Shown here one piece after another: positions 8,705 to 53,916 of a stretch of DNA of 64,000 nucleotides. Source of the stretch: Planctomycetota bacterium (GTDB lineage: Bacteria; Planctomycetota; UBA1135; UBA2386); contig OZ245838.1 of assembly GCA_965228735.1 (NCBI GenBank), positions 5,504,001-5,568,000 on the forward strand, given 5' to 3'. The position numbers were made by a program, and so were the translations under genes. Under the pieces are notes generated by a model. That model ran no database searches. It was not told the DNA's origin and saw only the letters and a program-made list of their open reading frames with translations. Within the stretch, counting starts at the first letter, position 1; each line of letters begins with the position of its first letter.

Positions 8705-8856
8705 CCCGAGTGATGGCTGCGGCGGCATCGGTCGACACGGCGCTCGGCGGTCCGGCTCGGAACGTCGGAGCGCGGGACAGGATCGCGACGCCTCGGCGGT
8801 CGCACTCGGCCGTTCGGGGCTTGCCCTCGCCGGTTCGCGGTGGCCGAATTGCGGGC

Positions 8857-9462: not shown

Positions 9463-9465
9463 CCC

Positions 9466-37934: not shown

Positions 37935-38996
37935 TCACGCCAACTCGAGAGCCACGGCGTCGGCGAATTCGCGGGTGCCGATCGGCGCGCGGTCGGCGGT
38001 CGTGAGGTCGGCGGTGCGGAGGCCTTTGGCGAGCGCGGCGTCCACTGCGGCTTCGATCGCGGCGGCGACCGCCGGCAGGCCGAGAGAATGGCGCGCCAGC
38101 ATCGCGGCGCTTTCGATCGCCCCGATCGGGTTGGCGAAGTTCTGCCCCGCAATGTCGGGGGCCGAACCGTGGACGGGCTCGAAGAGCCCCCAGGTGCCGT
38201 CGCCCAGGGAAGCCGACGGCAGGATACCGAGCGAGCCGGCGAGCACGCTGGCCTCGTCCGTCAACACGTCGCCGAACAGGTTCTCGGTCACGACGACATC
38301 GAAGTCGCGCGGCCGCTGCAAGAGGTGCATCGCCATCGCGTCGACGAGCAGGTGCTCGAGCTGGATGCCGTCGAACTCGCCTGCGACGTCGGTAGCGGTG
38401 TGGCGCCACAGTCGTGAGGTCGCCATGACGTTCGCCTTGTCGACCGACGTCACGCGGTTTCGCCGGCTGCCGGCGAGTTCGAACGCTCGCCGCACGACTC
38501 GGGTCACTTCACCGCGGGTGTAGCTGCACGTGTCGCTCGCGCGGTCGTCGCCCTCGACCTTGTCGCCGAAGTAGATCCCCGAAGTCAGCTCACGCACGAA
38601 CAAGATATCCGTGCCGCGCAGGCGTTCGGCGCGAATCGGCGAGCTGTCGAACAGGCACTCGCGCGGCCGAACCGGGCGGAGGTTGGCCCAGAGACCAAGC
38701 TCGCTGCGGATCCGGAGCAGGCCGGCCTCCGGGCGGTCGCCGCCATCGAGATGGTCCCAGGCGGGGCCGCCGACGGCCCCCATCAGCGCGGCGTCGGCGT
38801 TGCGGCAAGCGGCCAGCGTGGATTCTGGCAGCGGTTCGCCGTGTGCGTCAATCGCCGCGCCGCCGATCGTCGCCGACTCGGTTTGCAGCTCCAGGCCGTG
38901 CTGCGCCAGCGCCGCGCGGAGCACCTGAACGGCGGCCGACGTGACCTCGGGGCCGACGCCGTCTCCCGCCAGCACCGCGATGCGTACGCAGTTCAT
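37935..38996 (-). CDS. leuB: 3-isopropylmalate dehydrogenase
   Basis: [45 protein letters not shown] and [12 protein letters not shown]. Confidence 0.96.
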
Positions 38997-39097
38997 CGGC
39001 TGGCCTCCTCGCAGTTCGAGATCGCGGTCTCGCGTTCCAGCAGCTGGTCGAGGATGGTCGAGCGAACGACGTTCAGGGGGCGTCGCGATGGTTGCAT
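38993..39097 (-). pseudogene. leuD: probable leuD remnant with a large internal deletion
   Basis: A 34-aa frame, [34 protein letters not shown], in the leuD position. It starts 2 bp after the leuC-like stop and has an ATGA overlap with leuB. Confidence 0.5.
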
Positions 39098-39099
39098 GG

Positions 39100-39330
39100 T
39101 CAGTCGATGAGGTCTCTTCGATCGGTGATGCGGCCGGTCAACGCGGCGGCTGCGGTGAGCGGACTGGCCGAGAACGTGCGAGAGCCTCGCCCTCCGCTCC
39201 CGGAAGTTCCTGTTGGACGTGGACACTGCATAGCCGCCAGGTGGCACCTTATCGCCGTTCATCGCGAGGCACAGCGAGCAGCCGGGTTCGGCCCATTCGG
39301 CGTCGGCGTCGCGGAACACGCGCGCCGCCG
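39100..39330 (-). pseudogene. leuC: 3' fragment of leuC (frameshifted, 5' part missing)
   Basis: [39 protein letters not shown], then in another frame [30 protein letters not shown]. Confidence 0.85.
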
Positions 39331-39455
39331 CCCGCGGGTCCTCGAGGCGCTGGCGGGTCGTTCCTCGGCCGTCGAGCGTCGGTCGCGAGGCGGCGCGCTT
39401 CACCCGGGCCATGAGCCTGGCACGAAGCCGAGTGCGGTCTGGCTACGATGACGAC

Positions 39456-41267: not shown

Positions 41268-42971
41268 CTACCGCACGCTGACCGACAGCGCGTTGGTCGT
41301 CACCGCGCCGCCGGCGTTGGCCGTCGGCGCGAGCACGAGCGCGCCGAGCTGCATCTCGAAGCCGCCGCTCAGCGTGCCGGGGATCGGCAGCGACAGCGCG
41401 GCCGTGCCGGTCGGATCGGCGACCACGAAGAGGTTGGCCGCCGGCGTGAATCCGACTTCGCAGCCTGGGAAGCCGAACGGGTCGAGGGCCTGCGGCGTCG
41501 GCAGGCAGCCCACGCCGAAGTACACGATCGCGGGGGCGTTCGCCGGCGCATCAATGAGCTCGTAGGCGAACGTCGAGCCGATCGCCGGGAACGACGTGGC
41601 GCGGACGCGCGGCAGCGCCGCGAGGTTGCCCTGACACCCGCGGCCCCAGCTCAGCGAGTGCGCGCCGTTGCCGCTGCGCAGCACCGCCACGTAGCCGTCG
41701 GACTGGCTGCTCGGTCGGCCGCCGTACGCCGTCATGAGATCGCCGTGGTAGGCCTGACTCCGCAGCCCGTCGACGCGTTCGAACGTGTTGGGCTCGGTGG
41801 TCACCGCGAGCGGCACGGCGGGTGCGGCGACGGGATCCGGCGTCACGGTCGCGCCGCCCGTCGTCGGGTCGGGTGTCAGCACGCGGAAGTAGAGGCTCTC
41901 GAGGTTCTCGCTCGCGCGCGAGAACACGGCGAACACCGTGTTGCCGGTCACGGCGAGCGAGTAGTGCCGATACGTGACGTTGCCCGCGGTGAGCGCCGCG
42001 TCGGATTCGACGAGGCTGCGCACCCAGGTCGTGTAGCCCGTGCTCGCGGCCGCGAACGCGACCTCGAGCGCACCGCCCGCGGGATTCGGGGAGCCGACGG
42101 AGTAGAGCACGTAGAGGTTGCCCGCGGCATCGCGGGTGATGCAGCTGCTGTTGGTCGCACGCATCGTGCTCTGGCTGCCGCCATAGATCGACACGTCGGC
42201 CGGCTGCACCCAACTGTCCGCGATCGTGTCGAACGCGCGATACTTGATCCCGTAGAGCCCGGTGTTGGTGCGGAACGTCGTGTGGAAGGTCTCGCCGACC
42301 GCGGTCACGCTGCCGAGCATCCCGTAGGAGTCGGTGTTGCACCGGTAGGGCCCCTGGAACGTCGGGTCCGTCGTTCGCTTCACGAGCAGCCCACCCGACC
42401 AGCCGCTGAACCCCGACAGCTGCGGCGTGCGATGCGTGTTGAACACGATGCCGATCGTGCCCTGATCGGTGATCGCGAGGTCGTTGCAGTAGTACTGGTC
42501 GTCGGGCGTCGTGCCGGTCAGCAGGATGTCGGGTGTGCCGATCCACTGCCCGGCCGCGGTGTCGAACGCCTGGTAGTAGAGGTTTTGATAGGACCCGCCG
42601 TCGGTCGCGTTCCACGCCACGTGCAGGCGGTCGCACGACCGTCCGGCGACGACCGCGCCGCGGTTGTCGCCGACGGTCGGCACGTCGGTGACGGGGGCCC
42701 ACGTCGCGCCGTCATCGGTCGAGCTGTGCAACTGCAGCGTGCGGCCGGCCTGCGTACCCGAGCCGTCGTTCTCGTAGACGAGACACCAGAGCGTGCCGTT
42801 CGGCTCGTAGGCGAGTCCGCGAGTCCAGCCGCTCGGCACGTGCACGCTGCTCGGTGCGGTGCCCGCGTGAACGGTGCTCTGGGCCTGGAGGGTCGGCGCG
42901 AGCGCGCCGGTGAAGAGCACGGTCGCCGTCGTGGCGACCCGGATTCGGGGAAAGCGGGATGCGGTGGCCAT
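41268..42971 (-). CDS. secreted BNR/Asp-box beta-propeller-like protein with the recurrent C-terminal domain
   Basis: An AGGAG RBS, a signal peptide and the Asp-box SSTDDGATW. C-terminal WGRGCQG...PFGFPGC...ANAGGAVTTNALSVSVR. Confidence 0.8.
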   Translation of the reverse strand: MATASRFPRIRVATTATVLFTGALAPTLQAQSTVHAGTAPSSVHVPSGWTRGLAYEPNGTLWCLVYENDGSGTQAGRTLQLHSSTDDGATWAPVTDVPTVGDNRGAVVAGRSCDRLHVAWNATDGGSYQNLYYQAFDTAAGQWIGTPDILLTGTTPDDQYYCNDLAITDQGTIGIVFNTHRTPQLSGFSGWSGGLLVKRTTDPTFQGPYRCNTDSYGMLGSVTAVGETFHTTFRTNTGLYGIKYRAFDTIADSWVQPADVSIYGGSQSTMRATNSSCITRDAAGNLYVLYSVGSPNPAGGALEVAFAAASTGYTTWVRSLVESDAALTAGNVTYRHYSLAVTGNTVFAVFSRASENLESLYFRVLTPDPTTGGATVTPDPVAAPAVPLAVTTEPNTFERVDGLRSQAYHGDLMTAYGGRPSSQSDGYVAVLRSGNGAHSLSWGRGCQGNLAALPRVRATSFPAIGSTFAYELIDAPANAPAIVYFGVGCLPTPQALDPFGFPGCEVGFTPAANLFVVADPTGTAALSLPIPGTLSGGFEMQLGALVLAPTANAGGAVTTNALSVSVR

Positions 42972-43284
42972 GACGAGATCTCCTGGACGTTCCAGGCCCC
43001 CAGTGTAGTCGAGCCGGGGACGGTCGGGGGCATGAGCTGGCACCGAGAGTGTCGCGATCCTGTCAGCCGCCGGTGACGCGGCTCCGGGGTCACGAGATCC
43101 GCGGCGCGGCGCGCCGCCGGGGTGCGTCGTGGTCCCAGGTCCGGAGAACTTGCGGTCGACCTACGCCGATCGGCCCACTTCCGCTGCGCTCTCGGGCAAG
43201 GAAACGTAATCCCCATGACGTGCCGCTGACGTTGGCGGTGCCGGTCCCCTCTCTCGTCTGGTCGTCGAGGAACGAACGTCGATC

Positions 43285-44751
43285 GTGGCTGCTCAACCGT
43301 CAGCTGTCGGATTGCCGAGAATCGTCGGATTCGCGGGTCTCGCCATCGCCTCGAGCGTCGCGTTCGGCACCTCACTGCCAGGGCAGGCTGCCGCGCCTTC
43401 GAACCAACGGCCCAAGTTCCAGTTCGTTCGTCAGAACGAGGATTGGTCCGAGTTCCGCCCGGGGGCCGAGGCGTCGATCCTCGATCGCGTGAAGCACCTT
43501 GCGCTCAACGAGTCCGGTGACGTCTGGATGTCGTTCGGTGGCCGCTTCGATGCACGCTTCGAGGCCTGGGACGGCTTCGGCTTCGGTGCGACGACGCCCG
43601 GCAACGCGGACGAGTTCCTGTTGTCGCGCGTGATCGCCCACGGCGATCTGCACGTCGGTGATCGCGTGCGGTTCTGGGTCGAGGGCAAGACCGCGCAGGT
43701 CCTCGGGCGCGACGACCTGCCCGGACGGCGTCGGGGCCTCGACCTCGACACGGCGGCGCTCTATCAGGCCTTCGCCGACGTCGAGTTGGCCGGTCGCGAC
43801 TCCGGCAGCGACGGGTCGCTGCGGCTGCGGGTCGGTCGGCAGACGTTCTTGTTCGGAGCACAGCGCTTCATCAGTCCGTTGCCCTGGGCCAACACGCTGC
43901 GGACCTGGGACGGAGTCTCGGCGCTCTACCGCACCGGGCCGTGGTCCGTGACCGGCTTCGCGAGCTACTTCGTGCCGGTGCAGAAGCGCAGCTTCAACGA
44001 CTCCGACGACGACCAGGAGTTCTACGGCATCTACGCGAGCCGCAAGCCCGCCGATGACGGCCGCGGCTATGACGCCTTCCTCGTCGGCAACACCCGGAGC
44101 AACGTCACGGTGAACGGCACGACGGGCAACGAACGTCGCCATACCCTCGGTCTGCGCACCTGGGGCGGCCTCGCCGAGGCTGCCGGCGGCATGTTCGACG
44201 CGGAGTTCGAGGGCGCGTACCAGTTCGGCGAGGTCGGCAGCAACGGCGTCAGCGCGTACTCGGTGACCGGCGTGCTCGGCTATCGCCCGGACGATTGGGC
44301 CGCAGACCCGCGGTTCTTCATCGGCGTCGACGCCGCCAGCGGCGACTCGCGCCCCGGTGGGCACGTGCAGACGTTCCATCAGCTGTTTCCGCTGGGACAC
44401 GCGTACCTCGGTCTGGCCGATGCGTTCGGTCGCCAGAACATCTTCGCGGTGCAGGTCGGCGCGCAGCTGCAGCTGGCGAAGCAGACCAGGCTCCAGCTCG
44501 TGGCGCACACGTTCCGGGCCATGGAGTCGGCGGATGGCTTCTACACGGTCGGGGGCGGCCGGGCGCGGCCGGGGCAGGTCGGCGATCGCGAACTCGGTCA
44601 CGAGATCGACCTCTTGCTCGATCATCGCTTCAACCGGCACCTGTCGGCCTACGGCGGCTACAGCCACCTGTTCGCCGGCGACGGGATCAGCGCCACCGGG
44701 CCGAGCGAGGACCAGATGTTCTTCTACCTCGGGGTGTCTGCCCTGTTTTGA
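43285..44751 (+). CDS. alginate export (AlgE-like) outer-membrane beta-barrel
   Basis: Signal peptide, R.NEDWS, LRVGRQ...GAQRFI, EFEGAYQFG, SGD, TFHQLFP, LGHEIDL and a terminal Phe. Confidence 0.85.
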   Translation: MAAQPSAVGLPRIVGFAGLAIASSVAFGTSLPGQAAAPSNQRPKFQFVRQNEDWSEFRPGAEASILDRVKHLALNESGDVWMSFGGRFDARFEAWDGFGFGATTPGNADEFLLSRVIAHGDLHVGDRVRFWVEGKTAQVLGRDDLPGRRRGLDLDTAALYQAFADVELAGRDSGSDGSLRLRVGRQTFLFGAQRFISPLPWANTLRTWDGVSALYRTGPWSVTGFASYFVPVQKRSFNDSDDDQEFYGIYASRKPADDGRGYDAFLVGNTRSNVTVNGTTGNERRHTLGLRTWGGLAEAAGGMFDAEFEGAYQFGEVGSNGVSAYSVTGVLGYRPDDWAADPRFFIGVDAASGDSRPGGHVQTFHQLFPLGHAYLGLADAFGRQNIFAVQVGAQLQLAKQTRLQLVAHTFRAMESADGFYTVGGGRARPGQVGDRELGHEIDLLLDHRFNRHLSAYGGYSHLFAGDGISATGPSEDQMFFYLGVSALF

Positions 44752-44794
44752 GAGCCCTGTTCTGAGAGGCCTGTTTCGAGGGTCGGAGCGGATC

Positions 44795-45451
44795 ATGACG
44801 GACGATGCACACGCGCCGGTTGGCGGCGACACAGCGGACTCGGGAGCGACGACGGATCGCCTGTCGTTCTCCTTCGCGTCCATCGGGATGCTCGCTGGCC
44901 TCGGCGCGGGCTACGGCACGCTCGGCTACTTCGGGTTCGAGTTCCTGAAACCGCAAGCCGGTTCGCGACGTGGCTGGATGCTCGTCCGGCCGGTCAAGGA
45001 GTTCACCGTCGGCGAGACGCTGCGGTATCGCACCCCTGGGGGCGCGACCGTCAACGTGACGCGGCGCAGCCCCGAGGCGTCGGCCGATGCGTTCAAGGCG
45101 CTGAGCAGCGTCTGCCCGCATCTCGGCTGTCAGGTCCACTGGGAGCCGCAGAACAACCGCTACTTCTGTCCGTGCCACAACGGCGCGTTCGACGCGGACG
45201 GCAAGGGCACCGGCGGTCCGCCTGCAGACGCCGGGCAGAGCCTCGGCGAGTACTCGCTGCGCGTCGAGCAGGGCCTGCTGTTCATCGAGGTCCCGCTCGA
45301 GACCCTCGCCGCGGTCGAGACCGTCGAGGAGCTCGATCGTGACCTGCGGGTCGCCGTGATCGAGGAGCTGCCGCCGGCCGACCGTTGCCCGCGTGGCGCC
45401 GGCCATGACCCGTGTCTCGCGCCGCGCGACCGGACGGGGCGTCCGGCATGA
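44795..45451 (+). CDS. Rieske 2Fe-2S subunit of a Rieske/cytochrome b complex
   Basis: CPHLGC and CPCHNG boxes, GPP and an N-terminal TM. It has an ATGA overlap with the cytochrome b gene. Confidence 0.93.
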   Translation: MTDDAHAPVGGDTADSGATTDRLSFSFASIGMLAGLGAGYGTLGYFGFEFLKPQAGSRRGWMLVRPVKEFTVGETLRYRTPGGATVNVTRRSPEASADAFKALSSVCPHLGCQVHWEPQNNRYFCPCHNGAFDADGKGTGGPPADAGQSLGEYSLRVEQGLLFIEVPLETLAAVETVEELDRDLRVAVIEELPPADRCPRGAGHDPCLAPRDRTGRPA

Positions 45452-46497
45452 CGGCGGTCGGCGATTGGTTTCGCGAGCGTCTGCCGCTGCAGGGCGATCA
45501 GCTCAAGGAACTCACCAACGAGCCGGTCCCGAACCATCTCAAACACTGGTGGTTCTGCCTCGGCGGCACGCCCGCGTACCTGTTCCTCGTGCAGATCGTG
45601 ACCGGCATCCTGCTCGCGTTCTACTACGAGGCGACGCCGAGCCGGGCCTACGAGTCGGTGCGCTTCATCTCCGAGGATGTGACCTTCGGGTGGTACCTGC
45701 GCGGCCTGCACCGGTGGGGAGCGACGCTCATGGTCGCGAGCGTGATCCTGCACCAGATGCGGGTCTTCTTCACGGGCGCGTACCGCAAGCCGCGCGAGAT
45801 GAACTGGATGATCGGCATGTGCCTGCTGATGTGCACGCTGGTCGTCGGGTTCACGGGTTACTGCCTCGTGTTCGAGCAACTGAGTTTCTGGGGCGCGCAG
45901 GTCGGGGCCGAGATCACCGACGAGGTGCCGCTCATCGGCGGGTTCATGAAGGAGATGCTGCTCGGCGGCGACGGCTACAACAAGAACACGCTGTCGCGCT
46001 TCTTCGTGCTGCACGCGGCCGTGCTGCCCGTCGTGATGATCCTGCTGATCTTCGTGCACATCACGTTCATCCGTCTGCAGGGCATCGCGGAGATGAGGTT
46101 CGGGGACGAGAAGCCCGACACGCCGCGGTTCTTCAACTTCTTCCCGGACCACGTCGCGACGGAAGTGATCATGGGACTGGTCCTCATGATCCTGCTCAGC
46201 GTGCTGGCGACCGTGTTGCCGGCGACGATGGGCGAGGTCGCGAACCCCAACGTCACGCCCGAGGTCATCAAGCCCGAGTGGTTCTTCTACGTGACGTTCC
46301 GCTGGCTCAAGTTGTTCTCGATCACCGCTGCGGTGCTCAGCATGGGCCTCATCGTCTTCCTCATGTTCGTCTGGCCGTTCATCGACGGCTGGGTGCGCCG
46401 CCGCTGGCCAGGATCCGAGTTCAGCGTCTGGGTCGGGATCCTCGCCGTGCTGGCGATCCTCGGCCTGACCATCTGGGAGGGCGCCGTCGCCCACTGA
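45448..46497 (+). CDS. cytochrome b (fused b6 plus subunit IV type)
   Basis: WFCLGG, heme-ligand His in LHRWGA...ILHQ and VLH-x14-H, GAYRKPRE and IKPEWFF. Confidence 0.95.
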   Translation: MTAVGDWFRERLPLQGDQLKELTNEPVPNHLKHWWFCLGGTPAYLFLVQIVTGILLAFYYEATPSRAYESVRFISEDVTFGWYLRGLHRWGATLMVASVILHQMRVFFTGAYRKPREMNWMIGMCLLMCTLVVGFTGYCLVFEQLSFWGAQVGAEITDEVPLIGGFMKEMLLGGDGYNKNTLSRFFVLHAAVLPVVMILLIFVHITFIRLQGIAEMRFGDEKPDTPRFFNFFPDHVATEVIMGLVLMILLSVLATVLPATMGEVANPNVTPEVIKPEWFFYVTFRWLKLFSITAAVLSMGLIVFLMFVWPFIDGWVRRRWPGSEFSVWVGILAVLAILGLTIWEGAVAH

Positions 46498-46546
46498 GCC
46501 GACGTTGCGCTCTGTCGCACCCGCTACCGCCTCCCTCAAATACGCC

Positions 46547-48166
46547 ATGTCCCTCCGCTTCAAGCAGTTCGTCATCGCCGTGCTCGGGCTGATGTTCCTC
46601 GGCTCGTTGATCTATGTGCAGCGCATGGAGGTGCTGCGCAAGGAGCACGAGACGGCCGGGCGCGATGCGCCGGTTGCCGTGCCCGCTTCGAGTCAGCGCT
46701 GCGTCGATTGTCACAGCCAGGGCAACCCCGGCATCGTCGATCAGTGGATGTACAGCACGCATGCCCACAAGGGCGTCGGCTGCGTCGAGTGCCACCAGGC
46801 CAACGAGGGCGATGCCGATGCGTTCTTGCACGAGGGCGCGCTGATCGCCGCGATCGTCACGCCCAAGGACTGTGGGCGCTGCCACGAACAGGTGTTCGAT
46901 GAGTTCACCCGCAGCCACCACGCGCGGGGCGGCAACATCCTGGCGTCGCTCGACAACTTCCTCGCGGAGAAGGTGGAGGGCAAACGTGACGACACGAAGG
47001 AGGGCGCGGCGCGGTTCGCCTTCAACCCGCATGGACCGACGCCTGGCCGTTCGGGCATGGGCGAGGTCAACGGCCAGGCGAGTGCGGTGCTCGGCTGCAT
47101 GCAGTGTCACGGCAGCAAGATCGCGCTGCTTGCAACCGACGGCTCGACGTTGACCCTCGACGAGCTGCGACCCGACGAGGCCGGGCAACCCACCAACCTC
47201 GCCGCGGTCGCGAAGATCAAGAAGGACGAGAGCGGCAAGCCGATGCTCGATCCGAGCACCTGGCCCAACACCGGCATCGGCCGCATCAACCTCGATGGTT
47301 CGCGCGGCAGCTGCACTGCGTGTCACAGTCGTCACGACTTCTCGCCGCGGCGCGCGCGCCAGCCCGAGAACTGCGGCAAGTGCCATCTGGGGCCGGATCA
47401 CCCGCAGAAGGAGATCTACGAGGAGTCCAAGCACGGAGTCGCTTATCGGGACCTCAAGGACCGCATGAACCTCGACGGTGCCGAGTGGGTTCTGGGGCAG
47501 GACTACACCGCGGCCCCGACGTGCGCGACCTGTCACATGTCCGGCCACAGCAAGAACGGCGGCGTGATCACGCACGACGTCGGTGAGCGGATCAGCTGGA
47601 CGAACCGGCCGCCGGTGAGCCTCGTGCTCGATACCGACGCCAACCACAAGGTCGTCAAGGAGACCGATCCGGCGAAGCGCCAGGCGCTGATCGCCGACTC
47701 GTGGCAGGACAAGCGCACGCGCATGCAGCAGGTCTGCATGAACTGCCACACCGGCGACTACGTCGGCAGCTTCTACAAGCAGTACGACGACCTGATCCAC
47801 CTCTACAACGAGAAGTTCGCCAAGCCAGGCAAGGCGATCGTCGACGCGCTGAAGAGCAACGAGCTGCTCACCGAGCGGCAGTTCGACGAGAAGATCGAGT
47901 GGACGTGGTTCTATCTGTGGCACCACGAGGGGCGCCGCGCGCGCCACGGCGCCTCGATGATGGCGCCCGATTACACGCACTGGCACGGCATGTACGAGGT
48001 CGCCGAGCGGTTCTACATGGAGTTGATTCCCGAGGCGCGGGAGTTGACCCACGCGGCCAAGGCTGCCGGCAAGAGTGGCGAGGCCGAGGCCGTCGACGCG
48101 GTCATCGACGAGATCCTGGCGCGGCCGGAGCACGCGGGCAACGTCGTCGAGCAACGCGACCACTGA
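46547..48166 (+). CDS. octaheme cytochrome c of the hydroxylamine oxidoreductase (HAO) family, probably the reductive type
   Basis: Eight CxxCH motifs (CVDCH, CVECH, CGRCH, CMQCH, CTACH, CGKCH, CATCH, CMNCH), CHSRHDFS, CHLGPDHPQ.EIY.ESKHG and an N-terminal TM anchor. Confidence 0.9.
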   Translation: MSLRFKQFVIAVLGLMFLGSLIYVQRMEVLRKEHETAGRDAPVAVPASSQRCVDCHSQGNPGIVDQWMYSTHAHKGVGCVECHQANEGDADAFLHEGALIAAIVTPKDCGRCHEQVFDEFTRSHHARGGNILASLDNFLAEKVEGKRDDTKEGAARFAFNPHGPTPGRSGMGEVNGQASAVLGCMQCHGSKIALLATDGSTLTLDELRPDEAGQPTNLAAVAKIKKDESGKPMLDPSTWPNTGIGRINLDGSRGSCTACHSRHDFSPRRARQPENCGKCHLGPDHPQKEIYEESKHGVAYRDLKDRMNLDGAEWVLGQDYTAAPTCATCHMSGHSKNGGVITHDVGERISWTNRPPVSLVLDTDANHKVVKETDPAKRQALIADSWQDKRTRMQQVCMNCHTGDYVGSFYKQYDDLIHLYNEKFAKPGKAIVDALKSNELLTERQFDEKIEWTWFYLWHHEGRRARHGASMMAPDYTHWHGMYEVAERFYMELIPEARELTHAAKAAGKSGEAEAVDAVIDEILARPEHAGNVVEQRDH

Positions 48167-48190
48167 GTGATCGACCCGAGGAACGACGAG

Positions 48191-50560
48191 ATGAGCGACC
48201 AACGACATCCGGATCGGCGCGGTTTCCTGCGCGCGCTGGCGTGCACGCCCGCCGTCGCCGCGTTCTCCGAGCGCGACCGCCGCGAAGCCGAGCAGCTGCG
48301 CACGGCCCACGGCGAGGCCCCGGCCGACCGCCTTCGTGACCTCGATTGGGCGAAGGCGCCGTGTCGCTACTGTGGGACCGGCTGCGGGGTCGAGGTCGGG
48401 GTGCGTGACGGCAAGGTCCAGGCCGTTCGAGGTGACGAGAACAGCCCCGTCAACAAAGGCCTGCTCTGCGTCAAGGGCTACCACCTGCCCGCGATGCTCT
48501 ACGGCAAGGACCGCCTCACGCGACCCATGCTGCGTCGCAACGGCGTCCTCGAGCCGATCTCCTGGGACGAGGCCCTCGACCTGATCGCGGAGAAGTTCGG
48601 GGCGGCGCTCGAGGAGAAGGGGCCGGACGGCGTGGCGATGTACGGCAGCGGCCAGTGGACGGTGTTCGACGGCTACGCGGCGCTGAAGTGGGTCAAGGGC
48701 GGGATGAAGTCGAACAACATCGACCCCAACGCCCGCCTGTGCATGGCCAGCGCCGTGATGGGATTCGTGACGCAGTTCCAGAGTGACGAGCCGATGGGGT
48801 GCTACGAGGACCTCGATGTCGGCCAGGACTTCTACCTCTGGGGCAACAACATGGCCGAGATGCATCCGGTGCTGTTCAGCCGGATGCTCGAGAACAAGCG
48901 CCAGAACCCGGACGTGCGCATCATCGACATCGCGACGCGCCGCACTCCGACGAGTGACTACGCGGATGTCTACGTCGAGTTCCGACCCGGCAGCGATCTC
49001 GCGCTCGCGAACGGCATCCTGCATCTGCTCGTGCAGAACGGCGGTGTCGACCGGGCGTTCGTCGACGAGAACTGCGTCTTCAAGCGCGGCATCGAGGATC
49101 TCGAGGAGATCGGCTACGGCTGCTTCGGCGAGCAGGCCGAGAGCTACGAGTTCAAGGATCAGGCGAGGGACTCGAGCTACGACGAACTCGTCGAGTTCTT
49201 GAACGACTACACCCCGGACAAGGTGGCCGAGACGACCGGGGTGTCCGTGGCGCAGATCGAGCTGCTCGCCGAGATGTACGGCGACCGGGCCAGACGCAGC
49301 GTCTCCCTCTGGTGCATGGGCGTGAATCAACACACCCGCGGCACCTGGATGAACAACCTGCTCAACGACATTCATCTGTTGACGGGCAAGATCAGCCGGC
49401 CGGGGAACAACCCCTTCAGTCTCACGGGGCAGCCGTCCGCGTGCGGCACGGTGCGTGAGGTCGGTACCCTGGCGAACCGGCTCCCGGCCGACATGGTCGT
49501 GATGAAGGAGGCGCATCGGCAGAAGGCCGAGGAGATCTGGAAGCTGCCGGCGGGCACGATCAATCCGCAACCCGGGCATCACGCCGTCGACATGTTCCGC
49601 GCGTTCGCGCGTGGCGACACGAAGGCGATGTGGGTGCAGGTGACCAACCCCTGGGTCACGATCCCGAACCTGCGCCGGATCGAGCGCCAGCCCGGCGACG
49701 GCAAGTTCCTCGTCGTCAGCGACATCTACCCGACGCCGACGACGGACGTGGCCGACCTCGTGCTGCCGTCGGCGGCCTGGGTCGAGCGCGAGGGTGTGTT
49801 CGGCAACACCGAGCGCCGCACGCAGCAGTGGAACAAGATGGTCGAGCCGCCCGGGGAGGCCAAGGAAGACGCCTGGCAGATCATCCAGGTCGCGCGGCGC
49901 ATGGGCATGGGGCACCTGTTTCCGTGGCCCGATGAGTCGTTCCACGAGGCGATGTTCGAGGAATACCGCAGCTTCGGACTCGGCACTGGCAAGGACCTCG
50001 CGAGCTACGAGCAGCTCAAGAAGGCGCCGGGTCTCATGTGGCCCGTCGTCGACGGCAAGGAGACGCGCTACCGCTACGCGGCGGGGTTCGATCCCTACGT
50101 CGAGAAGGCCAAGGGCGTGCACTTCTACAAGGCGAAGGGCTACGGCGAACGGGCCGCGATCTGGCTGCGGCCGTACCACCCGCCTGCGGAGGAGCCCGAC
50201 GAGGACTACCCGCTGTGGCTCTGCACCGGTCGCGTGCTCGAGCATTGGCACACGGGGTCGATGACGCGCCGTGTGGCGCAGCTGCATCAGGCCGTGCCCA
50301 GTGCCTACGTCGAGCTCAATCGCGCCGATGCGCTGCAGCTCGGGATCAACAACGGCGACAGCGTCCGGCTCGTGTCCAGGCGCGGTGAGCTCGAGATCGA
50401 GGCGCGGATCGACGGCCGCGGCAAGACGCCTGCGGGCTCCGTGTTCGTGCCGTTCTTCGACGAGAAGCTGCTCGTCAACGACCTCACGCTCGATGCGCTC
50501 GACTGCATCAGCAAGGAACCGGACTACAAGAAGTGTGCGGTCCGGGTAGAGCGGGCATGA
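48191..50560 (+). CDS. napA: periplasmic nitrate reductase catalytic subunit
   Basis: Tat motif DRRGFL, 4Fe-4S motif CRYCGTGC..CVKG, GSGQWT, NARLCMASA, SLTGQPSACGT, GRVLEHWHTGSMT and DYKKCAV. Confidence 0.95.
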   Translation: MSDQRHPDRRGFLRALACTPAVAAFSERDRREAEQLRTAHGEAPADRLRDLDWAKAPCRYCGTGCGVEVGVRDGKVQAVRGDENSPVNKGLLCVKGYHLPAMLYGKDRLTRPMLRRNGVLEPISWDEALDLIAEKFGAALEEKGPDGVAMYGSGQWTVFDGYAALKWVKGGMKSNNIDPNARLCMASAVMGFVTQFQSDEPMGCYEDLDVGQDFYLWGNNMAEMHPVLFSRMLENKRQNPDVRIIDIATRRTPTSDYADVYVEFRPGSDLALANGILHLLVQNGGVDRAFVDENCVFKRGIEDLEEIGYGCFGEQAESYEFKDQARDSSYDELVEFLNDYTPDKVAETTGVSVAQIELLAEMYGDRARRSVSLWCMGVNQHTRGTWMNNLLNDIHLLTGKISRPGNNPFSLTGQPSACGTVREVGTLANRLPADMVVMKEAHRQKAEEIWKLPAGTINPQPGHHAVDMFRAFARGDTKAMWVQVTNPWVTIPNLRRIERQPGDGKFLVVSDIYPTPTTDVADLVLPSAAWVEREGVFGNTERRTQQWNKMVEPPGEAKEDAWQIIQVARRMGMGHLFPWPDESFHEAMFEEYRSFGLGTGKDLASYEQLKKAPGLMWPVVDGKETRYRYAAGFDPYVEKAKGVHFYKAKGYGERAAIWLRPYHPPAEEPDEDYPLWLCTGRVLEHWHTGSMTRRVAQLHQAVPSAYVELNRADALQLGINNGDSVRLVSRRGELEIEARIDGRGKTPAGSVFVPFFDEKLLVNDLTLDALDCISKEPDYKKCAVRVERA

Positions 50561-51132
50561 ATCGGCGCTCGCGGGTCGTGGCCGTTGTCAGCGCAATGGC
50601 TTGGGTGGTTCTCGCGGCGCTCGCTGCGTGCGGCGACGACGAAGCCGGCAAGGTTCCGGTGCCCGGTCAGCCAGGCGCCCACAAGACGTCGGCGAAGGTG
50701 CGGGCCGAGCGCCGGCTGTTCGACGGCGCGCCGCCCGTGATCCCGCACCAGGACTTCGGGGCCGCGTGCCTGTCGTGCCACGAGCGCGGCATGATGGTGC
50801 CGGAGGTCGGCTACGCGCCGCCCGTTCCGCATGACGGCGTGCAGAAGCCGGGGGCGATGAGCCGGTGTCGCATGTGCCACGTCTTCGTCCGAACGGACAC
50901 GACATTCGCCGCGAGCACGTTCGTCGGTTTCGCACAGGACCTGCGCAAGGGCGCCCGGCTCAACGACCACGCGCCGCCCGTCATCCCGCACCAGATCCTG
51001 CTGCGCGAGAACTGCGGGGCCTGTCACGACGGCCCGGCTGCCCGTGAGGAGGTGCGCTGCAGTCATCCCGAGCGCGTGCGTTGTCGGCAGTGTCACGTGC
51101 CGCAGGTGAGCACGGACGTGTTCGGGCGCTGA
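50557..51132 (+). CDS. napB: NapB-like cytochrome c lipoprotein, tandem-duplicated (four hemes)
   Basis: Lipobox LAAC and two APPVIPH...CxxCH...CxxCH units (CLSCH, CRMCH, CGACH, CRQCH). It has an ATGA overlap with napA. Confidence 0.85.
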   Translation: MNRRSRVVAVVSAMAWVVLAALAACGDDEAGKVPVPGQPGAHKTSAKVRAERRLFDGAPPVIPHQDFGAACLSCHERGMMVPEVGYAPPVPHDGVQKPGAMSRCRMCHVFVRTDTTFAASTFVGFAQDLRKGARLNDHAPPVIPHQILLRENCGACHDGPAAREEVRCSHPERVRCRQCHVPQVSTDVFGR

Positions 51133-51140
51133 GCTGTGGC

Positions 51141-52049
51141 TCAACGGACGCGATACACGTGGTAGCCGACGTGGTTGTCGGGCGCTTTCGGGTCGATCGT
51201 GATCGGTAGTTCCAGCGCGGTGCGGAGGCGCGCACCGTCCGCGGACTTCAGGCCGGCGGCGATCTGCAGCTGGTAATGCGGGCGTTTCGTCGTGCCGACC
51301 TCGGTGAGCGCCCGCTTGCGCATCGCGGGCGTGAAGGTGAGGCCGAGCGGCGGCTCGAAGCGGAACGTCGTCATGGTGCCGTCGACGTCGAGAGTCCGCA
51401 TCGGCACGAGGTGGGTCGTGTCGCCCTTCGCTTGCGGAACGATCAGCTGCACCTGGTCGAGTGTCGCGCCGTCGACCGGTCGGTCGAAGCGGATTCGAAA
51501 CCCGACGTGAGGAGCGATCAGTCCATCCGCCATCACGCCGCCGTCCTTGCCGTCGCGGCCCTTCTCGACGACCCGGACGAAGTTGCGCGGATCGTCGCCG
51601 TTCTCCGGTTCGAAGGGCAGGGCGAGCGTGACGGGAGCGCCGTGTTCGTGGACGAACGCGACGCGCGTCTCGCCGCGCGCCGGAAAAGCCTGGTGCGCCG
51701 CGGCGGCGATCTCGCGCAAACGGGCAGCGGCGGTGGGGCGATCGAGCCGGACGCGCACGTGCGCGCGCACCGCCACGGATTCCGTGCGCGTATCCCGCGT
51801 GACGGTCGCGGTCGTGAGGAGCGCGCCCGTCGCGGGATCGGCAATCCGCAGCACGTCCCCGCGATCGATGGCCTGCTGCACGCCGCGGAGGAGAACGGTG
51901 AGAACGACCTCGCCGCCCTCGGCATCCGCGACGCGTTCGAGGTGAGCCGGGATCTCACCGAGGATCCGCAGCGGAGCCTCCTGCCCGTTCGCCAGCGCGG
52001 CCAGCAGGGCGACGGCGGTGACGACCGAGTGACGAGTCGTGAGTCGCAT
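51141..52049 (-). CDS. secreted protein with a C-terminal Ig-like (Big_5/SbsA-like) domain
   Basis: Signal peptide and RIRFDRPVD...FRFEP...YQLQIAAGLKSADG. Confidence 0.6.
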   Translation of the reverse strand: MRLTTRHSVVTAVALLAALANGQEAPLRILGEIPAHLERVADAEGGEVVLTVLLRGVQQAIDRGDVLRIADPATGALLTTATVTRDTRTESVAVRAHVRVRLDRPTAAARLREIAAAAHQAFPARGETRVAFVHEHGAPVTLALPFEPENGDDPRNFVRVVEKGRDGKDGGVMADGLIAPHVGFRIRFDRPVDGATLDQVQLIVPQAKGDTTHLVPMRTLDVDGTMTTFRFEPPLGLTFTPAMRKRALTEVGTTKRPHYQLQIAAGLKSADGARLRTALELPITIDPKAPDNHVGYHVYRVR

Positions 52050-52147
52050 GCCGGACCAATAGCACTCGATCGACGACCCGTAACGGATGGCGGTACCGAA
52101 CCCGCTTCAAATCCGCCACGGGCGAATCGGCGGCGAGGTCGGTGTGG

Positions 52148-52242
52148 CCCGTACGGAACCTGGTTCATGCTGCCGGCCGCCGCAGCGCTACCTGCGAGAC
52201 GACGGCTTCGCGGCCGGCAGCATGAACCAGGTTCCGTACGGG
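52148..52242. repeat. 33-bp perfect inverted repeat with a 29-bp spacer (REP/MITE-like)
   Basis: CCCGTACGGAACCTGGTTCATGCTGCCGGCCGC at 52148-52180 and its exact reverse complement at 52210-52242. Confidence 0.92.
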
Positions 52243-52248
52243 GCACAT

Positions 52249-53916
52249 TCACTCTGCGGCGATCTCGGTCACCGTGCCGTCCTCGACGTGCCAGCGGCGC
52301 GTCAGCGCGACCGTGTCGAGCATTCGCCGGTCGTGGGTCACGAGCAGCACCGTGCCCTCGAACGACTCCATCGCCTGTTCGAGCTGTTCGATCGCTTCGA
52401 GGTCGAGGTGGTTGGTCGGCTCATCAAGGACGAGCAGGTTGACGCCGCGGGCTTGCAGCAGCGCGAGGGCTGTGCGGGTGCGTTCGCCGGGCGACAGTGA
52501 GCTCGCGGGGCGGTCGATCTGTGCGGTGCCGATGCCGAACTTCGCGAGCAGCGTGCGCACTTCGGACGTCGGCCAGTCCGGCAGGTGCTGCGCGAACACC
52601 TCGAGCATCGGTGCATCGGCCTCGAACAGCGCGCGGGCCTGGTCGACCTCGCCGACCGCGAGGCCGGCGCCGAGATCCACGGTGCCGGTCACGGGCTGCA
52701 GTCGACCGAGCAGCAGCGCGAGCAGCGTGCTCTTGCCGGCCCCGTTCGGCCCGGTGATCGCGACGCGGTCGCGGAAGTTCAGTTGCAGGTCGAGCGGGCC
52801 GAGCGTGAACGCGGCGCTGCCCGCATCCTCGCCGCCGCGCGTTGCGACCGCGCCACGGAGCCGCGACACGACCTCGCCCGAACGATCCGCGCTCGCGATC
52901 GTGAGTTGCAGCCGCCACTCCTTGCGCGGCGCCTCGACCTGGCCGAGCCGTTCGATCATGCGTTCGGTCTGCTTGATCTTGGCGGCCTGCTTCTCCGTCG
53001 ATTCCACGCGGAACGCGCGACCGATCTTGTCGCCGTCGGGCGCGCGCCGCCGCGCGTTCTTCACACCCTTCTGCATCCACGCGCGCTGCCGCCGGGCGCG
53101 CGCTTCGAGCGCCGACTTCTTCTCCGCAAACTCCTCGTAGGCGTCCGACGCGTGCCGCCGCGTCGTCCGACGCTCCTCGAGATACGCATCGTAGCTGCCG
53201 CCGTAGACGACGACGCGCTGCAGGCTGCGGTCGATCTCGACGACCTGGTTCACGGTGCGCGCGAGGAACTCGCGGTCGTGGCTGATCACCAGCGTCGGCG
53301 CGTCGAGCTCACGAACGAAGCGCTCCAGGCGATCGAGTCCGTCGATGTCGAGGTCGTTGGTCGGCTCGTCCAGCAGGTAGGCGTCGTAGCGTGACAGCAG
53401 CAGTGCGGCGAGTCCGGCGCGGGCCGCCTGGCCGCCCGACAACGACGTCATCGCGCGGTCGAGGTCGACCGTGAGACCGAGGTCCGCCGCGACGCTCGCG
53501 GAGCGTTCCGTGAAGTCGGCGCCGCCGAGGTGCAGCCAGTGTTCGAGCGCCTCGGAGTAGCGGTCGTCGGCGCCGGTCTCGCCATCGGCCATCGCGTCGG
53601 CGGCCGCGTTCATCGCTGCTTCGGCCGCGACCGTGCCCGTCCGTCGGCCGAGCAACGCGCGGATCGTCTCGCCCTCGCGCCGTTCCGGCTCCTGCGCGAG
53701 GAAGCCGATCGACGCGTGCTTGGGCGCGACGGTGACGGTGCCCAGATCGGGCGCACGCAGCCCCGCGAGGATCCGGAGCAACGTCGACTTGCCCGTGCCG
53801 TTGGGACCGACGAGGCCGATCACGTCGCCCGGTGTCACGTCGAGGTCGAGGCCGGAGAACAGCTCGCGCGCGCCGTAGCTCGCGGCGAGTCCCCGGCCGT
53901 GGATGGAAGCGGTCAC
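52249..53916 (-). CDS. ABC-F family ATP-binding protein
   Basis: Two nucleotide-binding domains (GPNGTGKST/LSGGQ/LDEPTN and GPNGAGKST/LSPGE/LDEPTNHLD) and no TM segments. Confidence 0.93.
   Translation of the reverse strand: MTASIHGRGLAASYGARELFSGLDLDVTPGDVIGLVGPNGTGKSTLLRILAGLRAPDLGTVTVAPKHASIGFLAQEPERREGETIRALLGRRTGTVAAEAAMNAAADAMADGETGADDRYSEALEHWLHLGGADFTERSASVAADLGLTVDLDRAMTSLSGGQAARAGLAALLLSRYDAYLLDEPTNDLDIDGLDRLERFVRELDAPTLVISHDREFLARTVNQVVEIDRSLQRVVVYGGSYDAYLEERRTTRRHASDAYEEFAEKKSALEARARRQRAWMQKGVKNARRRAPDGDKIGRAFRVESTEKQAAKIKQTERMIERLGQVEAPRKEWRLQLTIASADRSGEVVSRLRGAVATRGGEDAGSAAFTLGPLDLQLNFRDRVAITGPNGAGKSTLLALLLGRLQPVTGTVDLGAGLAVGEVDQARALFEADAPMLEVFAQHLPDWPTSEVRTLLAKFGIGTAQIDRPASSLSPGERTRTALALLQARGVNLLVLDEPTNHLDLEAIEQLEQAMESFEGTVLLVTHDRRMLDTVALTRRWHVEDGTVTEIAAE

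What the first reader, a model, noticed from the sequence alone, without database searches (positions are those of the whole stretch)
46547..48166. Octaheme HAO-family protein apparently lacks the P460 cross-link tyrosine
Seen: eight CxxCH motifs and a C-terminal ARHGASMMAPDYTHWHGMYE segment. Known: oxidative HAO has a Tyr cross-linked to heme 4 in this region, whereas reductive epsilon-HAO-type enzymes have Trp there. Inferred from a by-eye alignment: this enzyme reduces nitrite or hydroxylamine rather than oxidising hydroxylamine. It also carries a ~55-aa stretch between hemes 4 and 5.
Basis: partly seen in the sequence, partly recalled or inferred. Interest (0 to 1): 0.7.

Follow-up and report, generated by a model that had tools for sequence, protein, structure and literature searches.

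The report
Membrane-anchored reductive HAO-type octaheme cytochrome
This bacterial gene encodes an eight-heme protein of the hydroxylamine-oxidoreductase family that lacks the tyrosine the oxidising members need and lies between genes for a predicted quinol-oxidising membrane complex and a nitrate reductase, so it likely reduces nitrite; the arrangement is common and already noted in genome papers, but I found no biochemical test of it.

Summary
Confirmed. Window 46547-48166 encodes a 539-aa HAO-family octaheme with eight CxxCH motifs. No tyrosine lies where N. europaea Tyr467 lies: that column is Trp479 or His478, depending on the aligner (one of seven MAFFT settings gave Tyr476). The heme ligand His459 is replaced by Met471. 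Met eight residues before Trp is the published epsilon-Hao signature. The heme 4-5 spacer is 67 aa, not about 55, and is normal for this clade. Cytochrome b lies directly upstream in 76 of 80 related loci, exactly those with the anchor. No NrfA, NirK, NirS, NirA/B or Hcp was found in the genome (93% complete). Best reading: a periplasmic nitrite reductase fed from menaquinol by its own Rieske/cytochrome b complex; the product is likely ammonium, possibly NO. The family is very large (7999 homologues scored). Similar clusters are in print for Caldithrix, Nitrospira and Kuenenia, and this scan reported the same cassette in several other genomes. New member of a known kind, biochemically untested as far as I found.

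The parts
43285..44751 (+). Alginate-export-family outer-membrane porin; possible nitrate/nitrite channel (untested); start codon uncertain
   Evidence: PF13372 E 5e-68; a homologue lies near the octaheme gene in 8 of 80 loci and at the same place in the same-genus genome G001
44795..45451 (+). Rieske [2Fe-2S] protein; motifs CPHLGC and CPCHNGAF, with Gly and Phe where high-potential Rieske proteins have Ser and Tyr, so predicted low potential
   Evidence: PF00355; motif columns conserved in 53 aligned sequences; overlaps the cytochrome b start by 4 nt
45448..46497 (+). Unsplit cytochrome b (b6-like N-terminal part plus subunit-IV-like part) with four heme-b His motifs, the FCLGG motif and an intact PEWFF Qo motif
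   Evidence: PF00033, PF13631, PF00032; motifs located; H88, H102, H189, H204 and P276-E277-W278 invariant in 53 sequences
46547..48166 (+). HAO-family octaheme cytochrome c, 539 aa (the finding)
   Evidence: best PDB match 4QO5 (IhOCC) E 4e-41, then 6H5L, then N. europaea HAO
46565..46621 (+). N-terminal hydrophobic helix (residues 7-25), predicted uncleaved membrane anchor with a conserved face (K6, F17, L18, S20, L21, V24, Q25, E28, R31)
   Evidence: only strongly hydrophobic window in the protein; predicted helix 3-36; invariant columns in 53 sequences
47096..47110 (+). Heme 4 motif CMQCH, predicted five-coordinate catalytic heme; CxxCH, not CxxCK
   Evidence: aligned with heme 4 of HAO/HDH
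47111..47311 (+). 67-residue spacer between hemes 4 and 5; its last ~20 residues are shared with IhOCC, the rest is clade-specific
   Evidence: block pLDDT 86-97 over residues 191-260
47396..47401 (+). Asp284-His285, equivalent to Asp267-His268 of N. europaea HAO (their active-site role is recalled, not tested)
   Evidence: alignment to 4FAS/1FGJ; invariant in 103 sequences
47957..47959 (+). Met471, in place of the axial heme ligand His459 of N. europaea HAO; predicted His/Met-ligated heme
   Evidence: Met in 121 of 121 proteins and 80 of 80 loci; H459 named as axial ligand in PMC2628731 (Fig. S1 legend)
47972..47983 (+). Tyr476-Thr477-His478-Trp479; His478 or Trp479 occupies the Tyr467 cross-link position
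48167..50560 (+). NapA periplasmic nitrate reductase with a twin-arginine signal, [4Fe-4S] motif and catalytic-Cys motif
   Evidence: above the cut-offs of TIGR01706 (933.6 vs 930.55) and PRK13532 (966 vs 904); abuts the octaheme stop codon
50557..51132 (+). Tetraheme lipoprotein-like cytochrome c made of two NapB-like halves (PPVIPHQ followed by two CxxCH, twice); predicted electron donor to NapA
   Evidence: PF03892 26.8 bits vs cut-off 25.1; internal repeat and lipobox-like LAAC

Best explanation
The gene encodes an HAO-family octaheme cytochrome c without the cross-linking tyrosine, predicted to be membrane-anchored and periplasmic, that likely reduces nitrite, more likely to ammonium than to NO, with electrons likely taken from menaquinol through the Rieske/cytochrome b pair encoded directly upstream. 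Shown: eight heme motifs; no Tyr at the cross-link column in 9 of 10 alignments; Met in place of His459; the N-terminal hydrophobic helix; the gene order and its conservation; no other nitrite reductase found in the genome. Inferred mechanism: menaquinol is oxidised at the PEWY-type Qo site. One electron passes through the low-potential Rieske cluster to the N-terminal hemes of the octaheme, which takes the place of cytochrome c1/f. Electrons run along the heme chain (one heme predicted His/Met-ligated) to five-coordinate heme 4, where Asp284/His285 assist nitrite reduction. A branch passes through the tetraheme to NapA, which makes the nitrite from nitrate. The net result would be a self-contained nitrate-to-ammonium module for respiration, nitrogen supply or both, in an organism that also respires oxygen.
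For: Signature: Met471 and Trp479 in 121 of 121 close homologues, and 80 and 79 of 80 GTDB loci; no Tyr at 478 or 479 in any. All 13 Tyr-type references keep Tyr exactly 8 residues after the His ligand. The segment aligns without gaps to the cross-link-free HAOr 6H5L, Trp on Trp. The best solved relative is IhOCC by sequence and by fold. In a quick tree the protein lies in a 27-row clade of Met-type sequences (SH-aLRT 100), apart from all Tyr-type enzymes. Context: cytochrome b in 76 of 80 loci, Rieske in 66, napA in 38. All 76 loci whose match begins at residue 1 have cytochrome b directly upstream; the 4 others have none. In 151 genomes of the order, 21 of 23 napA genes lie directly behind this gene, and 14 of those 21 genomes have neither NrfA nor NirK. 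Own genome: NrfA, Hcp, NosZ, NirA/Sir and NirB not found; NirK only below the cut-off; the NirS family only as short partial hits. Menaquinone (futalosine) and cytochrome c assembly families are present. Complex prediction of octaheme 1-270 with cytochrome b and Rieske gave weak support: 0.41 against best control 0.01, runs agree in at least 17% of contacts, partner pLDDT at least 73. The mark was reached by 116 of 157 solved complexes and 2 of 215 mismatches, but at 0.60 or under by only 18 of 157 and by both mismatches. Literature: enzymes lacking the Tyr reduce nitrite and barely oxidise hydroxylamine (PMC8042395); a Nitrospira Rieske/cytochrome b-octaheme cluster is highly expressed with nitrite as sole nitrogen source (PMC6606698).
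Against: No activity, spectrum or expression data. The register is unresolved, and Tyr476 (120 of 121) fell on the Tyr467 column in 1 of 7 MAFFT settings. The heme-free monomer model superposes on solved HAOs only over residues ~285-510 (rmsd 3.2-4.2 A); whole-chain rmsd is about 19-21 A, so it does not settle the geometry. Half of the well-covered loci lack napA (19 of 40 have it). NirK co-occurs in 6 of 21 operon genomes and NrfA in 2 of 21, at its background rate (13 of 130), so there is no exclusion of NrfA to point to ammonium as the product. The characterised HAOr releases NO with a mild electron donor (PMC8042395). No napD was found, and the Rieske signal has lost one Arg. The genome is 93% complete, so the absences are provisional. 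How a presumed trimer with three anchors would fit a presumed dimeric Rieske/cytochrome b complex is unexplained.
Confidence: 0.62

Rival explanations
1. Same wiring, but the enzyme is an NO-forming nitrite reductase (one electron) that stands in for NirK/NirS, as proposed for Kuenenia HAOr.
For: HAOr shares the Trp column and the CxxCH active site and gives NO with phenazine ethosulfate/ascorbate (PMC8042395). A Phycisphaerae genome survey suggests hao-like octahemes replace missing NirK/NirS (PMC11266412). The genome has a NorB/NorC-like gene pair.
Against: HAOr is in the His-ligand clade, far from this protein. NirK is present in 6 of 21 operon genomes. The NorB-like protein scores weakly (PF00115 E 8e-13, no NCBIfam hit at 1e-15) and lacks recalled catalytic motifs. 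NosZ was not found.
Confidence: 0.17
2. The octaheme is mainly the c-type electron-exit subunit of the Rieske/cytochrome b complex. It relays electrons to NapA or other acceptors, and its nitrogen-oxide chemistry is secondary.
For: Tight link between anchor and cytochrome b (76 of 76). No cytochrome c1/f gene in the operon. About half the loci lack napA. Weak support for binding.
Against: Only seven distal ligands are identifiable for eight hemes (H72, H95, H125, H263, H296, H343, M471), and Asp284/His285 are invariant in 103 sequences, which fits a retained open catalytic heme. Soluble relatives with no Rieske/cytochrome b neighbours keep the same site.
Confidence: 0.1
3. It is a detoxifying reductase for hydroxylamine or NO (or reduces sulfite) rather than an enzyme of nitrite respiration or assimilation.
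For: Reductive HAOs also reduce hydroxylamine and NO in vitro (PMC8042395). No Hcp and no siroheme sulfite/nitrite reductase were found in the genome. Rrf2-family and Usp-family genes recur near some loci (6 and 7 of 80; one representative of each scanned).
Against: Direct coupling to napA in 21 of 23 napA-bearing genomes of the order points to nitrite as the substrate.
Confidence: 0.08
4. It is an oxidative enzyme after all, cross-linked through Tyr476 (or uncross-linked), that feeds electrons from hydroxylamine into the Rieske/cytochrome b complex.
For: Tyr476 is present in 120 of 121 homologues and falls on the Tyr467 column with BLOSUM30.
Against: Tyr476 is only 5 residues after the ligand, against 8 in 13 of 13 Tyr-type references. 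IhOCC has Trp and HAOr has Val at that position, and one homologue has Phe. There is no haoB or cytochrome c554 neighbour. No ammonia monooxygenase was found, though that control was blank, and the score is far below the HDH cut-off.
Confidence: 0.03

Closest known systems
Caldithrix abyssi Nap cluster + Rieske/cytochrome b (Cabys_2558/2557) + epsilon-Hao (Cabys_2556); PMC5317091, passages read
   Same: [quoted passage not shown]
   Different: Caldithrix also has NapGH and NapF; this operon has neither, and napD was not found. Gene order differs. Whether its octaheme is in the same anchored clade was not tested.
Nitrospira moscoviensis / N. japonica 'ONR' with two upstream Rieske/cytochrome b genes; PMC6606698, passages read
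   Same: Same three-gene order; highly expressed with nitrite as sole nitrogen source in an organism lacking NirA; read as quinol-coupled nitrite reduction to ammonium.
   Different: No napA mentioned in the passages read; assimilatory role in a nitrite oxidiser. Sequence relationship to this protein not tested.
Campylobacterota epsilon-Hao (Haase et al. 2017, not held; seen only through passages of PMC8042395, PMC8940962 and PMC2628731)
   Same: No Tyr cross-link; Trp at the position and Met eight residues before it; often near nap genes; reduces nitrite and hydroxylamine in vitro.
   Different: In Nautilia the proposed partners are cytochrome cM552 and the hydroxylamine reductase Har; here the partner is Rieske/cytochrome b and no Hcp was found. 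No Campylobacterota sequence was obtained, so clade membership is untested.
IhOCC of Ignicoccus hospitalis (PDB 4QO5)
   Same: Best PDB match by sequence (E 4e-41; profile 2e-78) and fold (Z 13.1, rmsd 18.9 A, 359 aligned). Met at the His459 position and a long heme 4-5 spacer ending in the same motif. P460 absent per PMC9250108.
   Different: Archaeal; Phe rather than Trp at +8 from the Met; spacer about 43 aa; structurally aligned identity 23-32%.
Kuenenia HAOr Kustc0458 (PDB 6H5L) and the Rieske/cytochrome b complex Kuste4569-4574 (PMC8042395 Discussion and passages; PMC12954380 passages)
   Same: No cross-link; Trp at +8 in an ungapped alignment. Kuste4574 is an HAO-like octaheme that co-migrates with a Rieske/cytochrome b complex and is proposed to reduce nitrite.
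   Different: HAOr keeps His as the ligand and has a diheme partner. The Kuste complex has extra multiheme and NAD(P) oxidoreductase subunits and a high-potential Rieske (+303 mV), whereas this Rieske lacks the Ser and Tyr.
Oxidative HAO of Nitrosomonas europaea (1FGJ/4FAS), anammox HOX and HDH
   Same: Eight hemes with the same heme 5-6 spacing, Asp/His pair and C-terminal helices (Z 12.5, rmsd 3.5 A, 198 residues).
   Different: No Tyr467, His459 replaced by Met, heme 4-5 spacer 67 aa against 5-6, N-terminal anchor, and a different gene context.

Membership tests
HAO-family octaheme cytochrome c | Eight CxxCH motifs with HAO-like spacing (15 aa between hemes 5 and 6) | tested here: met
   PF13447 81 bits vs cut-off 21.9
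HAO-family octaheme cytochrome c | Seven distal ligands leaving heme 4 open, plus an Asp/His pair | tested here: met
   By alignment only: H72, H95, H125, H263, H296, H343, M471 and D284/H285; ligand roles other than H459 are recalled
HAO-family octaheme cytochrome c | C-terminal oligomerisation helices / HAO fold | tested here: met
   Predicted helices 403-437, 449-470 and 474-506; top structural matches are all HAO-family, Z 10.2-13.1
HAO-family octaheme cytochrome c | Homotrimer | not tested
   Three copies exceed the size limit of the complex tool
Oxidative HAO / HOX / HDH | Tyr eight residues after the His459 ligand (P460 cross-link) | tested here: not met
   Trp479 or His478 in 9 of 10 alignments; Tyr476 only with BLOSUM30
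Oxidative HAO / HOX / HDH | His at the 459 ligand position; HDH model cut-off | tested here: not met
   Met471; NF052343 70.9 bits vs cut-off 900
Oxidative HAO / HOX / HDH | 460-475 nm band and hydroxylamine or hydrazine oxidation | not testable with these tools
   Needs purified protein
epsilon-Hao subfamily (reductive) | Trp at the cross-link position and Met eight residues before it (as stated in PMC8940962) | tested here: met
   Met471 and Trp479 in 121 of 121 homologues; the alternative register puts His478 on the Tyr column
epsilon-Hao subfamily (reductive) | Groups with Campylobacterota epsilon-Hao in a tree | not tested
   No Campylobacterota sequence was retrieved
epsilon-Hao subfamily (reductive) | Nitrite and hydroxylamine reductase activity without oxidation | not testable with these tools
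   Needs an assay
Anammox HAOr (Kustc0458 type) | His ligand at -8 and membership of the HAOr clade | tested here: not met
   Met471; separate clade from L051/L052, which match 6H5L at E 2e-174 for L051
ONR / NrfA nitrite reductases | CxxCK motif at the catalytic heme | tested here: not met
   All eight motifs are CxxCH; only weak PDB matches
Rieske/cytochrome b-coupled octaheme module (Caldithrix/Nitrospira type) | Rieske and cytochrome b genes adjacent to a Tyr-less octaheme gene | tested here: met
Rieske/cytochrome b-coupled octaheme module (Caldithrix/Nitrospira type) | Physical complex of the octaheme with Rieske/cytochrome b | tested here: inconclusive
   Weak support, 0.41 vs best control 0.01; no interface given

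The most novel reading that the evidence does not exclude
The anchored octaheme is the true third subunit of a menaquinol-oxidising Rieske/cytochrome b complex, replacing cytochrome c1/f. With NapA and the tetraheme it forms a nitrate-to-ammonium supercomplex driven by a Q-cycle. Nap-type nitrate reduction and nitrite ammonification, normally not proton-translocating at the quinol-oxidation step (NapC/NapGH, NrfH; recalled), would then pump protons. This would be a widespread ammonification route, invisible to nrfA surveys, in Planctomycetota, Gemmatimonadota, Acidobacteriota, Myxococcota and others, whose genes are routinely mislabelled 'hao' and read as nitrification.
Probability: 0.3. Interest if true: 0.62.

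Novelty: new member of a known kind. Interest (0 to 1): 0.3.

Why it matters
Genes of this clade are deposited as 'hydroxylamine oxidoreductase' or 'hydroxylamine dehydrogenase' and can be counted as evidence of nitrification or anammox, when they likely run the other way. If the product is ammonium, many genomes without nrfA could retain nitrogen by ammonification, which affects nitrogen budgets drawn from metagenomes. If the octaheme docks on the Rieske/cytochrome b complex, it is a testable case of a terminal reductase wired directly to a Q-cycle enzyme. This copy adds little beyond the many others.

Tried and rejected
(1) Residue-level structural alignment with 1FGJ: the fold tools return ranges, not residue pairs, and the heme-free monomer model differs from solved chains by about 19-21 A overall, so the His478/Trp479 register stays open. 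Pairwise phmmer, the 26-sequence HMM and hhalign against one sequence did not reach the N. europaea or Ruegeria C-terminus. (2) No Campylobacterota, Caldithrix or Nitrospira sequence was retrieved: the plasmid search gave 3 records, the genome scan returned only close relatives, a search with the Desulfobaculum protein listed none so named among its best 120, and the supplement of PMC9250108 had no hit. Haase 2017 and Parey 2016 are not held. The alignment figures S6 of PMC8940962 and S1 of PMC2628731 were not seen and bear on the register. (3) Cytochrome b-octaheme fusions: six long open frames in relatives were ordinary genes inside stop-poor GC-rich DNA. (4) Exclusion of NrfA or NirK as a clue to the product: NrfA 2 of 21 operon genomes vs 13 of 130 others, NirK 6 of 21 vs 9 of 130; not decisive, and the genomes are related. 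(5) Expression: no RNA holder listed. (6) No sigma-70-like promoter in 42900-52300; terminator-like hits at chance level (5 vs 3.7). (7) The AMO search was blank, but so was its control. (8) The search of 50%-identity representatives was still queued at the end. (9) Sequencing error at the motif or in the Rieske signal rejected. (10) The tree is the quick one; the full search did not finish, and it has no outgroup.
Full report
OBSERVATION. Window 46547-48166 (+) is an intact 539-aa ORF with eight CxxCH motifs at residues 52, 79, 109, 184, 256, 276, 326 and 397; shuffles give at most two (20,000 trials). The quoted C-terminal segment starts at residue 465. Contigs from 3 of 4 public runs cover 44600-48300 in one piece without a difference, and the fourth covers it in two pieces; they may include the source sample. 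The protein is the only match of its kind in its 7.19-Mb genome, which is 93% complete. The same phylum holds genomes above the hydrazine dehydrogenase cut-off (11 of 301), and most named close relatives are Planctomycetota, so I infer a non-anammox planctomycete.

FAMILY. The best solved relatives are IhOCC (4QO5, E 4e-41), Kuenenia HAOr (6H5L, 4e-24) and N. europaea HAO (4e-17). IhOCC and HAOr also lead with a 103-sequence profile and by Foldseek; by VIA-align IhOCC, N. europaea HAO and HAOr are near-tied at Z 13.1-11.8. The AlphaFold2 model (mean pLDDT 89.7) superposes on HAOs over residues ~285-510 at 3.2-4.2 A but differs by about 19-21 A over the whole chain, so I did not use it for geometry.

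THE CROSS-LINK POSITION. I fixed the numbering from the printed 4FAS alignment of Ruegeria pomeroyi HaoA, which lies next to haoB: His459 and Tyr467 are eight residues apart. All 13 Tyr-type references I assembled (Ruegeria HaoA and 12 anammox paralogues, whose cross-link is presumed from sequence) keep that spacing. Met471 sits on His459 in each alignment I viewed over that stretch. The Tyr467 column is Trp479 in 4 of 7 MAFFT settings, His478 in 2 of 7 and in both hhalign modes and the HMM alignment to 4FAS, and Tyr476 in 1 of 7 (BLOSUM30). Both main registers are in print: Trp with Met eight residues earlier for epsilon-Hao (PMC8940962, passages) and His at the key site of ancestral reductive enzymes (PMC12758564, passages). 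Among 121 close proteins (the query and 120 hits) Met471, His478 and Trp479 are invariant and position 476 is Tyr in 120 and Phe in 1. Among 80 GTDB loci Met is in 80, Trp in 79, and His in 77 with Gln in 3. No sequence has Tyr at 478 or 479. Tyr476 is the only way to rescue a cross-link. It lies 5 rather than 8 residues after the ligand, and IhOCC and HAOr have Trp and Val there, so I rate it unlikely but not excluded. His459 is named as an axial heme ligand in the legend of Fig. S1 of PMC2628731, so one heme is predicted to be His/Met-ligated. In a quick, midpoint-rooted tree of 47 sequences the 27 Met-type rows form one clade (SH-aLRT 100), apart from the His-type rows that include all Tyr-type enzymes and the HAOr orthologues.

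SPACER. Hemes 4 and 5 are 67 residues apart, not about 55; 66-68 in 121 of 121 close proteins, 5-6 in Tyr-type enzymes, 32-33 in two Desulfobacterota plasmid homologues and about 43 in IhOCC. It is a clade trait of unknown role.

CONTEXT. The gene is the fourth of six co-oriented, tightly packed genes: porin (PF13372), Rieske, unsplit cytochrome b with PEWFF, the octaheme, NapA above its NCBIfam cut-offs, and a tetraheme with two NapB-like halves. The gaps are 43, -4, 49, 0 and -4 nt. In 80 GTDB loci from several phyla, cytochrome b is present in 76, Rieske in 66, napA in 38, the tetraheme in 30 and the porin in 8. In the 40 loci with at least 7 kb on both sides the counts are 39, 38, 19, 18 and 6. 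The octaheme begins with a single hydrophobic helix whose face is invariant in 53 sequences. All 76 loci whose match starts at residue 1 have cytochrome b directly upstream. The other 4 have none: three have signal-peptide-like N-termini by eye and one looks broken. These loci were chosen by similarity and are related, so this is a pattern, not a statistic. In the order sample 23 of 151 genomes have napA, and 21 of these lie directly behind this gene (coordinates compared by eye). The Rieske has Gly and Phe where Ser and Tyr raise the potential by about 130 and 65 mV (PMC12954380, passages; the motif register is recalled), which suits menaquinol. The genome has the futalosine menaquinone family and a cytochrome c assembly protein. 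A complex prediction of octaheme residues 1-270 with cytochrome b and Rieske gave weak support: 0.41 against best control 0.01, at least 17% contact agreement, partner pLDDT at least 73. The mark was reached by 116 of 157 solved complexes and 2 of 215 mismatches, but at 0.60 or under by only 18 of 157 and by both mismatches.

GENOME. Not found: NrfA, Hcp (41), NosZ (46), any NirA/Sir-type siroheme enzyme (76), NirB (112; also 0 of 151 in the order) and NapD (77). The controls rang in each of these searches, below the cut-off for NosZ. NirK appears only as hits below the cut-off (44), and the NirS family only as short partial hits, the better one a beta-propeller (45, 79). The AMO search was blank with a blank control (47). 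Present: a cbb3 oxidase above its cut-off, an aa3-type oxidase just below its cut-off beside Qrc/alternative-complex-III-like genes, and a divergent NorB/NorC-like pair. So the organism likely respires oxygen, makes nitrite with NapA, and has no other recognisable enzyme to remove it.

MECHANISM. Most likely menaquinol is oxidised at the Qo site; electrons pass through the Rieske cluster to the anchored octaheme and on to open heme 4 (Asp284/His285), where nitrite is reduced; a branch through the tetraheme feeds NapA. Every step here is inferred. I favour ammonium as the product, because no assimilatory nitrite reductase, Hcp or clear NO/N2O sink was found and because the Nitrospira cluster of the same gene order is tied to nitrite assimilation (PMC6606698, passages). 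Against this, HAOr releases NO with a mild donor (PMC8042395, Discussion and passages), a Phycisphaerae survey reads such genes as NirK/NirS substitutes (PMC11266412, passages), and NrfA is not depleted among operon genomes (2 of 21 vs 13 of 130; NirK 6 of 21 vs 9 of 130; 14 of 21 have neither).

KNOWN OR NEW. Caldithrix abyssi has a Tyr-less epsilon-Hao beside Rieske/cytochrome b and nap genes, with the same wiring proposed (PMC5317091, passages). Nitrospira has the three-gene core. Kuenenia Kuste4569-4574 includes an HAO-like octaheme that co-migrates with its Rieske/cytochrome b complex (PMC12954380, passages). Other papers: PMC9250108, PMC10732223 and PMC8840924 were read as passages; Haase 2017 and Parey 2016 were not held and are known only second-hand. 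Eight literature searches showed no biochemical study of the anchored, cytochrome-b-linked clade; most subscription papers and all figure supplements are outside what I could see. Earlier notes of this scan list look-alike stretches in 48 other genomes, and the 8 shown describe the same protein family, most with this cassette. The protein works like epsilon-Hao/IhOCC, belongs to the HAO family, and is not an oxidative HAO, HDH, HAOr orthologue or ONR. Strict membership of the Campylobacterota epsilon-Hao clade is untested.

VERDICT. Observation confirmed with two corrections (spacer length; Trp or His register). Interpretation supported. New member of a known kind; interest 0.3. The open point of value is whether the cassette is a Q-cycle-coupled ammonification complex (probability about 0.3).

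Noticed in passing
window 44855-44869 (Rieske residues 21-25): The Rieske signal reads DRLSF, with a single Arg, where most aligned relatives have RRxFL and the same-genus genome has RRGF. Public contigs agree with the window, so it is not an assembly error. Tat export could be weakened.
   Followed up: partly
L159:2147-4302 (G000:C1:3348147-3350302): A diheme cytochrome c followed by a 472-aa heme-copper-oxidase-family protein (PF00115 E 8e-13, no NCBIfam hit at 1e-15). It resembles NorC/NorB but lacks the recalled HxWxE metal-ligand motif and has His-x-Met where His-x-His is expected. Function unclear. A Psr/Phs-like molybdoenzyme pair lies next to it on the other strand.
   Followed up: partly
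G000 whole genome: No siroheme nitrite/sulfite reductase (PF01077) was found in this 93%-complete genome, and no NirB in 151 genomes of the order. How the organism assimilates oxidised sulfur and nitrogen is unclear.
   Followed up: partly
window 48167-51132; G000 whole genome: napA is present without a detectable napD chaperone, and napC, napG, napH and napF are absent from the operon.
   Followed up: partly
L161:3108-10349 (G000:C1 about 1452100-1459350): A cluster of three large multiheme cytochromes (22, 7 and 11 CxxCH motifs) with no NCBIfam name at 1e-15; possible extracellular electron transfer module. The genome has 16 open frames with three or more CxxCH motifs.
   Followed up: no
L166-L169, L171, L069, L112, L116: Soluble, signal-peptide forms of the same octaheme occur without Rieske/cytochrome b neighbours. 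In the quick tree the two included from the GTDB loci (L069, L112) fall inside the anchored clade, which suggests repeated loss of the anchor.
   Followed up: partly
L029-L032 (G211, G118, G304, G087): Short (about 385 aa) His-ligand, Trp-type octahemes in other planctomycetes lie directly behind a 6-7-heme cytochrome with a repeat-like helical C-terminus; a different partner module.
   Followed up: no
L056:7398-9395 and L057:7257-9275 (Desulfobaculum and Desulfosarcina plasmids): Met/Trp-type octahemes on plasmids are paired with a NapC/NirT quinol dehydrogenase instead of Rieske/cytochrome b; the Desulfosarcina copy is next to norR and an NO reductase gene.
   Followed up: no
L114, octaheme gene 8001-9545: One of 80 loci has a degenerate C-terminal motif, with Asp at the Tyr476 position and Gly at the Trp479 position; possible assembly error or decay.
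   Followed up: no
window 37935-38996 and 38993-39412 (- strand): A 3-isopropylmalate dehydrogenase-like gene (PF00180) is preceded by a short ORF whose middle resembles, by eye, the C-terminal part of the LeuC large subunit; possibly a fragment or frameshifted gene.
   Followed up: no
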